Positions 9,064 to 12,100 of a stretch of DNA of 64,000 nt are shown here, in pieces. Every line of letters starts with the position of its first letter. The stretch's first letter is position 1. The stretch comes from Octopus sinensis. Its lineage: Eukaryota. The stretch spans positions 187,860,001 through 187,924,000 of the forward strand of contig NC_042997.1 of the NCBI RefSeq assembly GCF_006345805.1, written 5' to 3'. Position numbers: made by a program.

Positions 9064-9119
<56 letters not shown>

Positions 9120-12100
9120 AAAGGGCTTAGTAAAATAATTACTTTGCCGCATACTGAACTCGTTAGAAATAGCAGCTAAAAAGACTATTTCTAACACTTA
9201 AAGAAAACCTCTCTCATATAGTGTTTGCTCAATTCAACTCAAGAAAGTATGAGGGTAGAGACATTAAAAAAATCAAATGCAAAGGTTATTTGAGTACGTA
9301 CGTTTCAAGATTAGCCAAAATCGACCCTTCTCTCATCAGCTCAGAATGCCCTTGTTTGAATTTGAAAACACTGAAAATGGGAGCATACCCTTTCGGCTTG
9401 TTATCGCTTCAGAAGATCTGTTCCAAACTAACAGTGCCAACAAACTCAAATATGCAAGAGAAAGATTTCTGCTCTCCCCTAAAGAGAGGTTTTCTTTAAG
9501 TGTTAGAAATAGTCTTTTTAGCTGCTATTTCTAACGAGTTCAGTATGCGGCAAAGTAATTTATTTTACTAAGCCCTTTTATATAATGTAATAATTTGAAT
9601 TTGCCTTAAATGGTCCCTTTGCATACTGAATACTTGGTGAAATTGATTAATTAATTAATTAATTTTACCCTCAATTGTTGAAATTATAATTCATCTCTCT
9701 CTACTTAATTGTCTCGGATTTTACCGAAAAAAGCATAGTGTTTGCTGATTTTAACCCACGCTGGTGGAAAGGGGAGAGCAGAAATCTTTCTCTTGCATAT
9801 TTGAGTTTGTTGTCACTGTTAGTTTGGAACAGATCTTCTGAAGCGATAACAAGCCGAAAGGGTATGCTCCCATTTTCAGTGTTTTCAAATTCAAACAAGG
9901 GCATTCTGAGCTGATGAGAGAAGGGTCGATTTTGGCTAATCTTGAAACGTACGTACTCAAATAACCTTTGCATTTGATTTTTTTAATGTCTCTACCCTCA
10001 TACTTTCTTGAGTTGAATTGAGCAAACACTATATGAGAGAGGTTTTCTTTAAGTGTTAGAAATAGTCTTTTTAGCTGCTATTTCTAACGAGTTCAGTATG
10101 CGGCAAAGTAATTTATTTTACTAAGCCCTTTTATATAATGTAATAATTTGAATTTGCCTTAAATGGTCCCTTTGCATACTGAATACTTGGTGAAATTGAT
10201 TAATTAATTAATTAATTTTACCCTCAATTGTTGAAATTATATATATATATATATATATATAATATCTTTCTCGTTTCTACTTCTCCTTCTTGAGCGCATG
10301 CGCAGTATTTTTTGGTTACTATGGAAACAGTTCTTCGCAATCAGCTGTGCAACACATGGCGCTTCTTTGTTTTGGTTACTATGGAAATAGAAATTTTCGC
10401 TACGGTGATATGTAAAATACTCGCTTCTGATTGGCTAAAATACCCAAATTTTGCAAATTTTAAAAGCTAATAACTTTTTAATTATGGATTTATAGGAAAA
10501 ATTAATTTCATTTTCATAATTAGTATACAAAACTATCCATTAAGCAAATTTAAAAACAATTGGAATAAAATCGTAAACAGTGACGAAAGCCACTAGTTTC
10601 CTTGGATGCAACTATTTTACTCTACGTAATTGATCGGCCTGCTGCATGTCATTCATGAGTGCGTGTGGCTTAGTATCATATATCATACTTTCGCTAATTG
10701 TTTTGCGTAGTTGTGAATAGACACAGACGCAATCACCCCTTAACTCAGCGGCACATCTAGGACAGCTGAGGAGACAGAGCTGTACCCACATCCAGCTGGT
10801 ACTCATTTACAGCTAAGTGAAGCAACACCTTGCTTAAAGATAGATACTGCGTGCCGCTCGTTCAGGAACTGAGCCTACGACCTTATAATGGTGACCCGAA
10901 CACACTAACCCAAAGGTCACACTACAAATAGCATCCAAATTTCCATAAATCATCATCTACTGTCTTAGAGGAACGACATTTTGGTTTATATAGACCTAGG
11001 TATTCTATTTGGAAATAAAGACCAGATACTTACACCAACAAAAACTTACTTCAAATTTTATTTCAAGTCACGAGAGAGCTTCTAACGCGTCACTCGACCT
11101 GTCAGAAATAACAACCAAATCTACCTCACATTACATCTTACCATCACTGGAAAATAAGAGAACGATACATCTGATACTGAAATCATAGATATCTTTAAAT
11201 AGACAGGATAGTCATATCTGGAATGCCTTTGATCGTTAGTTTGCTCAGTGAAGGGTAACCTCGTCATAAACAATAATTTACTTCATGGCGTAAAAACCAC
11301 GTGTTTACAGTTGTATCTTTCCTACAAGTTTTAATTTTATCTAAGTTCCAAATGCTCTTTAATGATTGTTTCTCATCTATACTTCAGACATGACATCAAA
11401 GTTCAAATGAATTAATGTATGAGAAAGGTCTACAAACATAATGATGTTCTGAACCCTAGTGGAAGAAACTCTTGGAAACCACTTGAACTGTTGCACCCTT
11501 GAAATTTCAAGTCTTTGCCCATCAAAACAAGCTTATTACAGACGACACTTTGTAAACTAGAAGAAATAATTTTATTAGGTAGCAAAAGCTATTAATATGC
11601 AGGATGCATTCACAACTGATTTATTCTTATATTATCTACAAAGGAATCAAACAACTAGCCGCACACATCTATACCGGAAACTAGCTTACTGACATAAAGG
11701 CAGTCAATTACGACACCCTGTCACATAGGTCGAACTTGTGCAAAGTAGGGAAGTGATACATGTGCAGCAATATACATTAAAACACTATGGGGTTGTATGA
11801 AAAGAGATCTGTAGACATTGATATTTTTATTTAAGGTTACACACACGTACAGCCGTTTATCTTAATCGCCTCACATACTGACCTTTCAGCAGTCCATTTT
11901 ATCCCGCTTTCACGAATATTTTTCTTGTAAGACGAAAGAAAAGCAAAAGAAAAGATCTACAAACAAACTGACTCAGCCGTAGGTAAGGAGAGGACAAAAG
12001 AAATCGAGAAGCAGACAGAAAGATAAATAAAATAAAGACATAGAAGAAGGTGTCATGTGAACCTTTAACAGCAGCTAACAATATTTTGTTAGCACGTGGA

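What the first reader, a model, noticed from the sequence alone, without database searches (positions are those of the whole stretch)
9113..10240. 553-nt hammerhead retrozyme-like element with intact core and inverted + tandem layout
Seen: a non-coding unit with period 553 bp carrying a complete hammerhead (9907-9959), arranged as inverted copy, partial tandem copy and full unit inside (TA)n. The copies are almost identical, so the insertion looks young. Known: Penelope-like elements carry minimal type I HHRs in their pLTRs and form partial-tandem and inverted structures; non-LTR retrozymes are HHR-bearing tandem repeats that yield circular RNAs. Inference: this is a non-autonomous retrozyme copied from a circular or multimeric RNA by a Penelope RT. 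Read-through across the 9688/9689 junction is what a circular template predicts.
Basis: partly seen in the sequence, partly recalled or inferred. Interest (0 to 1): 0.88.

Follow-up and report, generated by a model that had tools for sequence, protein, structure and literature searches.

The report
Hammerhead-bearing Penelope-type mini-retroelement insertion
A 553-base non-coding mobile element carrying a small self-cutting RNA motif has landed once in a TA repeat, in the tandem-plus-inverted layout typical of Penelope-type retroelements; it is a tidy example of a known kind, not a new one.

Summary
Between two (TA)n tracts lie an inverted copy (9112-9480), a 206-nt partial copy (9483-9688, 100% identical) and a full 553-nt unit (9689-10241). 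A hammerhead motif with every core position present sits at 9907-9959, mirrored on the minus strand at 9343-9291. These are the only two such sites in 64 kb; 1 of 200 shuffles gave any.

The motif is the minimal Penelope type: helix I of 4 bp, a long helix II, and a 1-bp helix III in an 8-nt palindrome that pairs two copies (PMC4209133). No Rfam hammerhead model detects it, and the monomer fold is not favoured.

The unit is non-coding. No RT plus GIY-YIG ORF was found in the window.

The retrozyme and circular-RNA reading is only partly supported:
- Each strand carries one hammerhead, so this locus cannot release unit-length RNA.
- 9688/9689 is a priming site, not a circle junction.
- An uncleaved multimeric transcript explains the layout equally well.

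Best reading: a young, dead-end insertion of a non-autonomous Penelope-dependent element. Genome-wide copy number could not be checked. It is a new member of a known kind, of modest interest.

The parts
9071..9111 (.). Left (TA)n tract, about 20 repeats: half of the presumed target microsatellite. The boundary with the element is ambiguous by 2 nt (9112-9113).
   Evidence: TRF lists 9071-9119 with period 2. Read directly.
9112..9480 (-). Inverted copy covering unit positions about 451 down to 82. It is 5'-truncated at 9480. Its outer end lies just past a TTATATAA motif of the unit.
   Evidence: BLASTN gives 373 nt at 99.2%. The inverted repeat I1 is 349 nt at 99%. Differences are listed, and motif positions.
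9291..9343 (-). Second hammerhead copy on the minus strand, identical to the plus-strand one. Predicted cleavage is after the A at 9295.
   Evidence: Descriptor scans and core pattern.
9481..9482 (.). Two filler bases (AA) at the head-to-head junction of the inverted and direct parts.
   Evidence: and reading.
9483..9688 (+). Partial tandem copy (unit 348-553), 206 of 206 identical to 10036-10241. It acts as a pseudo-LTR and contains no hammerhead.
   Evidence: Direct repeat D1 with spacing 553. BLASTN 100%.
9689..10241 (+). Full 553-nt unit: 34% G+C, non-coding, and predicted to fold as a highly self-paired RNA.
   Evidence: No Pfam family. No protein relatives of the 108-aa antisense frame.
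9907..9959 (+). Type I hammerhead motif of the minimal PLE type. Helix I is 9907-9910/9956-9959. The core is 9911-9917. Helix II is 9918-9943 (4 bp, a 2x2 internal loop, 5 bp, loop AUUU). GAAA is 9944-9947. Helix III is A-U plus C-G closing a GUAC loop. Cleavage is after A9955.
   Evidence: Not detected by Rfam.
9947..9954 (+). 8-nt palindrome ACGTACGT. In a dimer it forms an 8-bp intermolecular helix III.
   Evidence: Cofold of two copies of 9895-9975 gives -39.2 kcal/mol against 2 x -13.9.
10054..10089 (+). Stable hairpin A in the 3' part of the unit. It is also present at 9501-9536 and, inverted, in the left copy.
   Evidence: -13.5 kcal/mol, z -3.85, 0 of 200 shuffles as stable.
10189..10222 (+). 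Stable hairpin B, 19 nt before the 3' end of the unit (also at 9636-9669). It is a candidate recognition element for the reverse transcriptase; this is inference only.
   Evidence: -13.4 kcal/mol, z -4.33, 0 of 200 shuffles as stable. Self-complementary arms I4.
10242..10261 (.). Right (TA)n tract, 10 repeats. The last 4 nt of the unit (TATA, 10238-10241) are in phase with it.
   Evidence: Read directly..

Best explanation
This is one young, dead-end insertion of a short (553-nt period) non-coding retroelement that depends on a Penelope-like element (PLE) acting in trans.

Proposed course of events. Steps 1-4 are inferred; step 5 is shown in silico.
1. A master locus elsewhere, holding tandem units, is transcribed into a longer-than-unit RNA. 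I take this to be an uncleaved multimeric transcript.
2. A PLE RT/GIY-YIG protein nicks both strands of a (TA)n microsatellite.
3. The bottom-strand nick primes cDNA at a TTATA site of the template. Synthesis runs back through a whole unit and 206 nt of the preceding one, giving 10241 back to 9483.
4. The top-strand nick primes at the only other TTATA site of the unit and copies about 370 nt, giving 9112 to 9480. The two cDNAs meet head to head and are joined with two filler bases.
5. The hammerhead is a minimal, dimer-dependent PLE-type motif. It could process multimeric RNA at a master locus. At this locus it stands once per strand and would be locked in a roughly 370-bp hairpin if the whole locus were transcribed. 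This copy therefore cannot make unit-length or circular RNA.
For: Shown:
- The tandem-plus-inverted layout inside (TA)n.
- A hammerhead with all core positions present on each strand, rare by chance: 1 of 200 shuffles with the strict descriptor and 3 of 200 reaching two sites with the relaxed one.
- A dimer fold with an 8-bp intermolecular helix III, 11.4 kcal/mol better than two monomers.
- No coding capacity. The longest sense frame from ATG is 16 aa. The antisense 108-aa frame is reached by 28 of 1000 shuffles and 16 of 112 window pieces. There is no Pfam match and no protein relative.
- No GIY-YIG among 141 ORFs of 72 aa or more. RVT_1 is found only in LINE-like ORFs that carry an AP endonuclease.
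- Both outer ends coincide with the only 2 TTATA motifs of the unit. The right end lies inside one and the left end 2 nt past the other. Only 19 of 553 unit positions lie in alternating-TA runs of 4 nt or more.
- The whole locus folds into one long hairpin, -762 kcal/mol.

From the literature:
- PLE insertions form partial tandems with an adjacent inverted 5'-truncated copy and favour microsatellites, with (TA)n reported for Naiads (PMC8557442, passages).
- PLE minimal hammerheads have a long helix II, a 4-5 bp helix I and a short palindromic helix III. They often occur as pairs 100-700 bp apart on opposite strands (PMC4209133, section 5). The two cores here are 572 bp apart.
- A purified PLE protein cleaves and extends both DNA strands, prefers AT-rich DNA, starts reverse transcription inside the template, and uses unprocessed RNA (PMC11167929, section 3).
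- Animal non-LTR retrozymes are related to PLE pseudo-LTRs, and family consensus lengths run from 51 to 972 bp (bioRxiv 10.64898/2026.07.22.740005, Results).
Against: - Only one locus was seen. No other copy lies in the 64-kb window. An exact 49-mer of the motif has 0 matches in the prokaryotic genome collection, which was not expected to hold it. That this is a multi-copy mobile family is therefore inferred, not shown.
- No autonomous PLE was seen.
- Rfam hammerhead models do not score the motif at all.
- The base pair at the foot of helix II is G-U. Helix II can slip by two bases (GAGAGA) and then swallows two core bases.
- The 53-nt motif alone prefers a non-hammerhead fold, and 179 of 200 shuffles fold at least as well. 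Self-cleavage is therefore unproven and may be weak.
- The in vitro PLE study found priming without homology to the target, whereas here the ends sit at TA-rich sites.
- The two ends differ by 99 nt, not by the 30-40 nt 'tail' described for PLEs.
- Nothing in the locus separates a multimeric template from a circular one.
Confidence: 0.55

Rival explanations
1. The element is a true retrozyme whose hammerhead-cleaved, ligated 553-nt circular RNA served as a rolling-circle template for a PLE reverse transcriptase.
For: - The direct part is 1.37 units long and runs unbroken through the hammerhead cleavage site. A cleaved linear monomer is therefore excluded, and a circle fits.
- As a circle the unit folds at -145.3 kcal/mol against -113.0 +/- 5.6 for shuffles (z -5.7, 0 of 100). 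That z is lower than all 10 control pieces of the window (+0.59 to -3.65). Retrozyme circles are described as highly self-paired (PMC7229834, passages).
- G+C of 34% fits the low-GC description.
Against: - An uncleaved multimeric transcript predicts the same layout and is the template seen for a PLE in vitro. No reads ending at the cleavage site were found in that study (PMC11167929).
- The hammerhead here is the minimal PLE type, reported as poorly active even as a dimer (PMC4209133). It is not the canonical type I motif of described animal retrozymes.
- The locus fails the 'two consecutive units with a hammerhead' criterion.
- The inverted copy differs from the direct copies at 2 internal positions. 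A single monomeric circle does not predict that, though reverse-transcriptase error or later mutation could explain it.
Confidence: 0.25
2. This is the remnant of an ordinary autonomous PLE. The repeated pieces are pseudo-LTR fragments of an element whose ORF was lost or never copied, so there is no separate non-autonomous family.
For: - Most genomic minimal hammerheads are single motifs thought to belong to truncated PLEs, and opposite-strand pairs 100-700 bp apart are common (PMC4209133, section 5).
- PLE insertions are often heavily 5'-truncated (PMC8557442).
Against: - The junction at 9688/9689 joins the end of the unit directly to its start with no ORF between. The template itself therefore had a 553-nt period. 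In an autonomous PLE the period would be pseudo-LTR plus ORF, about 3 kb or more.
- No frame of the unit matches any Pfam family.
- Recombination between pseudo-LTRs would leave one continuous copy, not a 1.37-unit tandem.
Confidence: 0.08
3. This is not a retroelement at all. It is a local DNA rearrangement (duplication plus inversion at a fragile TA repeat) or an assembly artefact, with a hammerhead-like motif present by chance.
For: - Only one locus is known.
- Rfam finds no hammerhead.
- Complex PLE-like structures are known to trouble assemblies (PMC8557442).
- (TA)n tracts are abundant in the window: 9 period-2 AT/TA arrays, including the one at 9071-9119.
Against: - The motif is rare by chance and carries the specific PLE traits, including the 8-nt palindrome.
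- The layout matches the PLE signature in three independent respects: partial tandem, inverted 5'-truncated copy and microsatellite target.
- The segment is cleanly bounded by (TA)n on both sides.
Confidence: 0.06
4. The element was mobilised by a LINE rather than a PLE. The inversion arose by twin priming, as for L1.
For: - LINE-like ORFs (AP endonuclease plus RVT_1) are present in the window at 31353-32822 and 57827-60698, with thousands of relatives (3159 at E<=1e-10 among the 8000 candidates scored).
- Twin priming yields inverted 5' parts (established knowledge of L1, recalled, not from a call).
Against: - There is no poly(A) or LINE-like 3' tail.
- The unit shares no sequence with the LINE copies in the window.
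- Longer-than-unit tandem copying and a hammerhead are PLE and retrozyme traits, not LINE traits.
Confidence: 0.05

Closest known systems
Minimal hammerheads in the pseudo-LTRs of Penelope-like elements (Cervera and de la Pena 2014, PMC4209133)
   Same: - Type I topology.
- Helix I of 4 bp and a long helix II (9 bp with an internal loop).
- Helix III of 1-2 bp in a palindrome, so a dimer is needed.
- Occurrence as a pair on opposite strands, 572 bp apart; the published range is about 100-700 bp.
   Different: - No PLE ORF is attached or nearby.
- The motif lies outside the 206-nt part that is repeated at this locus.
- The foot of helix II is a G-U pair.
- The published alignments are in figures and supplements that I could not see, so sequence-level kinship is untested.
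Animal non-LTR retrozymes (Cervera and de la Pena 2020, PMC7229834; Li et al. 2026 preprint, 10.64898/2026.07.22.740005)
   Same: - Non-coding, low G+C (34%) and hammerhead-bearing.
- A tandem period with no LTR, PBS or PPT features.
- A strongly self-paired predicted RNA (z -5.7).
- A proposed PLE origin and PLE-dependent mobilisation.
- The unit length lies within the 51-972 bp range of the preprint.
   Different: - Only 1.37 units with one hammerhead per strand, which fails the preprint's criterion for an active retrozyme.
- The length is outside the 150-450 bp range of the 2020 paper.
- The hammerhead is the minimal PLE type, not the canonical type I with loop-loop contacts.
- There are no expression or circularity data.
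Canonical PLE insertion architecture (Craig et al. 2021, PMC8557442; Frangieh et al. 2024, PMC11167929)
   Same: - Partial tandem forming a pseudo-LTR.
- An inverted 5'-truncated copy at the 5' side.
- An AT-rich or microsatellite target.
- Evidence for priming on both strands and inside the template.
   Different: - 553 nt with no ORF, instead of about 3-4 kb with RT and GIY-YIG.
- The ends sit at TA-rich template sites, whereas the in vitro study saw no homology between primer and template.
- The end offset is 99 nt, not a 30-40 nt tail.
Schistosome SINE-like elements with hammerheads (described in PMC6765202, passages)
   Same: Short, non-autonomous, dispersed elements carrying a type I hammerhead.
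   Different: - Those are described as a promoter followed by the ribozyme.
- ARAGORN finds no tRNA gene in 8800-10500.
- The layout here is of the PLE type.

Membership tests
Hammerhead ribozyme (type I, minimal PLE variant) | Conserved core: C3 U4 G5 A6 N7 G8 A9, G12 A13 A14, the A15.1-U16.1 pair, and H17 at the cleavage site. | tested here: met
   CTGATGA is at 9911-9917 and GAAA at 9944-9947. U9954 pairs with A9947, and A9955 precedes the cleavage site. The minus-strand copy is identical.
Hammerhead ribozyme (type I, minimal PLE variant) | Three helices around the core, with helix I open (type I). | tested here: met
   Helix I has 4 bp, with a possible 6-bp extension beyond a 5x5 internal loop. 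Helix II has 4+5 bp. Helix III has 2 pairs around GUAC. The hand-drawn hammerhead fold evaluates to only -5.3 kcal/mol.
Hammerhead ribozyme (type I, minimal PLE variant) | Recognition by the curated Rfam hammerhead covariance models. | tested here: not met
   No hammerhead family appears at the gathering score (0 matches in 64 kb). None appears at E<=10 (8 matches in 1401 nt; 3 matches in 101 nt; none is a hammerhead).
Hammerhead ribozyme (type I, minimal PLE variant) | PLE-type traits: long helix II, helix I of 4-5 bp, and a very short palindromic helix III that allows a dimer. | tested here: met
   The traits are taken from PMC4209133. Here the palindrome is the 8-nt ACGTACGT, and the dimer is 11.4 kcal/mol better than two monomers.
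Hammerhead ribozyme (type I, minimal PLE variant) | Self-cleavage of the RNA. | not testable with these tools
   This needs in vitro transcription of monomer and dimer. The monomer fold is not favoured in silico: 179 of 200 shuffles fold at least as well.
Animal non-LTR retrozyme | Tandem repeat with at least two consecutive units, each holding a complete hammerhead. | tested here: not met
   There are 1.37 units. The partial copy (unit 348-553) lacks the motif (unit 219-271), so each strand has one hammerhead. The criterion is from the preprint's Methods.
Animal non-LTR retrozyme | Non-coding unit of low G+C. | tested here: met
   G+C is 34%. The longest sense ATG frame is 16 aa. There are no Pfam matches and no protein relatives.
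Animal non-LTR retrozyme | Unit length in the described range. | tested here: inconclusive
   553 nt is outside the 150-450 bp range (PMC7229834). It is inside the 51-972 bp range (preprint).
Animal non-LTR retrozyme | Expressed as a highly self-paired circular RNA. | not testable with these tools
   Only the fold could be tested: z -5.7, with 0 of 100 shuffles as stable. No transcript data are available.
Animal non-LTR retrozyme | Many dispersed or tandem genomic copies. | not testable with these tools
   There is no other copy in the window. No eukaryotic genome collection is on hand. The prokaryotic collection gave 0 matches.
Penelope-like element (insertion signature) | Partial tandem (pseudo-LTR) plus an adjacent inverted 5'-truncated copy. 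| tested here: met
   The signature is as described in PMC8557442.
Penelope-like element (insertion signature) | Single ORF with a telomerase-like RT and a GIY-YIG endonuclease. | tested here: not met
   None of the 141 ORFs of 72 aa or more matches GIY-YIG. The RVT_1 ORFs carry AP-endonuclease domains and lie more than 21 kb away. The element is therefore at most a non-autonomous dependant, not a PLE proper.
Penelope-like element (insertion signature) | AT-rich or microsatellite target. | tested here: met
   (TA)n lies on both sides.
Penelope-like element (insertion signature) | 30-40 bp 'tail' extension at one end. | tested here: inconclusive
   The two outer ends differ by 99 nt of the unit (positions 451/454 versus 553). 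With no other copies to compare, a tail cannot be defined.

The most novel reading that the evidence does not exclude
The unit may represent an undescribed retrozyme-like family that uses the minimal, dimer-dependent PLE-type hammerhead rather than the canonical type I motif. This single fresh insertion would then preserve a footprint of the integration mechanism. Both strands of a (TA)n target would have primed reverse transcription at the only two TTATA sites of a continuous (circular or multimeric) template. That would be in vivo evidence for dual-strand, internally initiated, microhomology-guided priming by PLE machinery acting in trans on a 553-nt RNA.
Probability: 0.3. Interest if true: 0.5.

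Novelty: new member of a known kind. Interest (0 to 1): 0.3.

Why it matters
The way PLE machinery builds its tandem-plus-inverted insertions is still poorly understood. A short, nearly undecayed insertion with both outer ends and the inner junction readable is a convenient natural example of it. It also illustrates the proposed link between PLE pseudo-LTRs and animal retrozymes. Beyond that it is one more copy of a kind of element already reported in thousands of copies in many animal genomes. This particular copy is probably inert, except that a read-through transcript would form a long double-stranded hairpin.

Tried and rejected
- Rfam at three settings found no hammerhead. I kept the motif on the strength of the core, the published PLE traits and the shuffle controls, and I report the Rfam result as evidence against.
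- Coding capacity. The 108-aa antisense frame (90 aa from ATG) looked long for 34% G+C. It is reached by 28 of 1000 shuffles and 16 of 112 window pieces. It has no Pfam match and no relatives among proteins of 59-189 aa. I rejected it as a gene. Longer or shorter relatives were not searched.
- A shared peptide-like stretch in a sense and an antisense frame is explained by the unit's internal 24-nt inverted repeat (I24), which forms the base of the predicted rod.
- Host taxon. The LINE-like RT at 31353-32822 has 3159 relatives at E<=1e-10 among the 8000 candidates scored. The best is 55-56% identical, and the only named ones among the 120 listed are from Branchiostoma. The taxon was not fixed.
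- A pol III (tRNA-derived) origin: ARAGORN found no tRNA in 8800-10500.
- The exact 49-mer of the motif gave 0 matches in the prokaryotic genome collection.
- Lunse et al. (PMC5785218) is not held. It is known to me only through its citation in PMC6765202.
- Not done: the all-lengths representative protein search with the unit's frames, because the frames look non-protein-like and the yield was judged low.
- A covariance model of the motif was not built, because there are only two identical copies and no covariation is possible.
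Full report
**What is there.** Between two (TA)n tracts (9071-9111 and 10242-10261) lies a 1.13-kb block made of three pieces of one sequence.
- Taking 9689-10241 as the unit U (553 nt), 9483-9688 equals U348-553, 206 of 206 identical.
- 9109-9480 is the reverse complement of U82-454 (373-nt alignment, 99.2%).
- Exact identity of the inverted copy ends at 9112. It differs from the direct copies at a T/G (9813 versus 9437) and by one T in a short run (10112).
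- Two bases (9481-9482) fill the head-to-head junction.
- No other part of the 64-kb window resembles the unit. The remaining BLAST hits are 34 nt or shorter, and the two best of them are the unit's own palindromic hairpin.
- The 553-nt period rests on this one 206-nt repeat. TRF could not report it because its longest period is 500.

**The hammerhead.** On the plus strand the parts are as follows.
- Helix I: 9907-9910 paired with 9956-9959.
- Core: CUGAUGA at 9911-9917.
- Helix II: 9918-9943, built of 4 bp, a 2x2 internal loop, 5 bp and the loop AUUU.
- GAAA at 9944-9947.
- C9948-G9953 closing a GUAC loop, then U9954 and A9955, with the cleavage site after 9955.
- The inverted copy carries the identical motif on the minus strand (9343-9291, cleavage after 9295).

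Chance controls:

| Descriptor | Sites in window | Shuffle result |
|---|---|---|
| Strict | 2, both in the element | 1 of 200 shuffles had any site |
| Relaxed | the same 2 | 29 of 200 had at least 1; 3 of 200 had at least 2 |
| Bare core pattern | 2 | 0.35 expected |

I wrote the descriptors after seeing the motif, so they flatter it somewhat.

The architecture is the one published for PLE minimal hammerheads. These have a long helix II, a helix I of 4-5 bp and a very short palindromic helix III, and they are thought to act as dimers. They are often found as pairs 100-700 bp apart on opposite strands (PMC4209133, passages and sections 5 and 11; PMC6765202, passages). Here ACGUACGU (9947-9954) is an 8-nt palindrome. 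Two copies of 9895-9975 cofold at -39.2 kcal/mol against 2 x -13.9, with that palindrome as an intermolecular helix III. The two cores are 572 bp apart.

**Evidence against an intact, active ribozyme.**
- No Rfam hammerhead model scores the motif. There were 0 matches at the gathering score in 64 kb. At E<=10 there were 8 matches in 1401 nt and 3 in 101 nt, none of them a hammerhead.
- The pair at the foot of helix II is G-U.
- The run GAGAGA lets helix II slip by two bases and cover two core bases. That is the register chosen in the dimer fold.
- The 81-nt context is no more stable than shuffles (z 0.29).
- The 53-nt motif alone prefers another fold, and 179 of 200 shuffles fold at least as well.
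- Published PLE minimal hammerheads cleave poorly in vitro even as dimers, and one needed its protein (PMC11167929). Activity is therefore open.

**Coding and neighbours.**
- In tandem context the sense strand has no frame longer than 74 codons, and only 16 from an ATG.
- The antisense strand has a 108-codon frame. That length is reached by 28 of 1000 shuffles and by 16 of 112 pieces of the window.
- No frame of the unit matches Pfam. The 108-aa frame has no relative among proteins of 59-189 aa.
- Of the 141 stop-to-stop frames of 72 aa or more in the window (15, 126), none matches GIY-YIG.
- RVT_1 occurs only at 31353-32822 and 57827-59559. The latter adjoins AP-endonuclease matches, so these are LINE-like. 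They lie more than 21 kb from the element.
- The element is therefore non-autonomous as far as the window shows.
- The left flank consists of older interspersed repeats, 71-78% identical to their other copies. Beside them the 99-100% identity inside the locus looks young.

**How the locus was probably made (inference).** PLE insertions typically consist of a full copy preceded by a partial copy (the pseudo-LTR). [quoted passage not shown] A purified PLE protein cleaves and extends both strands of AT-rich DNA. It starts reverse transcription inside the template and uses unprocessed, presumably multimeric RNA (PMC11167929, section 3). The locus fits this step by step.
- A nick in the bottom strand of a (TA)n primed cDNA that ran from U553 back through U1 and on to U348 of the preceding unit.
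- A nick in the top strand primed a second cDNA from about U451 to U82.
- The two were joined with two extra bases.

The right end lies inside one, with its last four bases in phase with the (TA)n. The left end lies 2 nt past the other. Only 19 of 553 positions lie in alternating-TA runs of 4 nt or more. This suggests that the TA-rich nicked ends annealed to UAUA sites inside a continuous template.

**Circle or multimer.** The direct part is longer than one unit and both copies run unbroken through the cleavage site. A cleaved linear monomer is therefore excluded. A circle and an uncleaved multimeric transcript predict the same result. The boundary at 9688/9689 is a priming site, not a circle junction, because a ribozyme-closed circle would be joined at 9955/9956. 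In favour of a viroid-like RNA, the unit folded as a circle is far more stable than shuffles: -145.3 against -113.0 +/- 5.6 kcal/mol, z -5.7, 0 of 100. That z is lower than in all 10 control pieces of the window. I lean to the multimeric template because that is what was seen for a real PLE, but the locus does not decide the matter.

**What this copy can do.**
- The 206-nt partial copy lacks the motif, so each strand has one hammerhead. A transcript can be cut once at most, and no unit-length or circular RNA can arise from this locus.
- It fails the operational criterion for an active retrozyme, which is two consecutive units each with a hammerhead (preprint 10.64898/2026.07.22.740005, Methods). 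It corresponds to what that preprint calls monomer derivatives.
- A transcript through the whole block would fold into a hairpin of about 370 bp (-762 kcal/mol). That would bury both motifs and could feed small-RNA pathways. The last point is inference.

**Comparison with what is known.** The locus works like a PLE-dependent, hammerhead-bearing non-autonomous element.
- It is not a PLE proper, because it has no ORF.
- It is not shown to be a retrozyme in the strict sense, because it is not a tandem of hammerheads and no circular RNA is shown.
- Its unit length is outside the 150-450 bp range of the 2020 description (PMC7229834) but inside the 51-972 bp range of the 2026 preprint.
- That preprint argues that animal retrozymes derive from PLE pseudo-LTRs. 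This locus is what such a derivative looks like just after insertion.

**Limits.**
Copy number, master loci and the mobilising PLE stayed unchecked.
- The one scan made, an exact 49-mer against prokaryotic genomes, found nothing, as expected.
- The host taxon was not fixed.
- Figures and supplements of the cited papers, which hold the hammerhead alignments and PLE consensus sequences, could not be seen. A known family matching this unit may already be listed there.

**Verdict.** The element is a new member of a known kind, and interest is 0.3.

Noticed in passing
window 9109-10241: If the whole block is transcribed as one RNA it folds into a near-perfect hairpin of about 370 bp (-762 kcal/mol). 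This is a possible source of small RNAs and would lock both hammerhead copies in double-stranded RNA.
   Followed up: partly
window 8881-9066, also 30244-30429, 34117-34283, 39636-39773, 52503-52671, 56311-56495: The sequence just left of the (TA)n is an interspersed repeat with 5 other copies in the window (72-78% identical). Two of them lie about 0.9-1.3 kb downstream of the two LINE-like RT ORFs on the same strand. It is therefore either the 3' end of that LINE family or a SINE sharing its tail. From memory only, its 3' end resembles a cephalopod SINE; this was not tested by any search.
   Followed up: partly
window 8222-8531: A second interspersed repeat has 7 other copies in the window (71-78% identical). 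It has no Pfam match in its frames.
   Followed up: no
window 57827-60698 (minus strand) and 31353-32822 (minus strand): These are LINE-like retrotransposon remnants. The first has AP endonuclease, RVT_1 and a PHD-like finger split over four frames. The second is a 489-aa RT frame. The RT has thousands of relatives at 50-60% identity, and the only named ones among the 120 listed are from Branchiostoma.
   Followed up: partly
window 30400-30614, 56472-56690, 56938-57093: Tandem repeats of 61-79 nt (2.0-3.4 copies) lie downstream of both LINE-like ORFs and overlap the repeat shared with 8881-9066.
   Followed up: no
window 42579-42623: A short interstitial array has a 14-nt unit made of two CCCTAA-like telomere-type repeats (3.2 copies, 77% matches).
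   Followed up: no
window 9735-9758 and 10009-10032: A 24-nt inverted repeat inside the unit (83% complementary) forms the base of the long rod in the predicted circular fold, with hammerhead helix II near the tip of the rod. It also explains a shared peptide-like stretch in one sense and one antisense frame.
   Followed up: yes
window 18487-18768 (minus strand): There is a weak match to DUF4371 (E 2e-4, below the curated cut-off). From recall, this domain is often seen in transposase-derived proteins, so it may be a DNA-transposon remnant.
   Followed up: no
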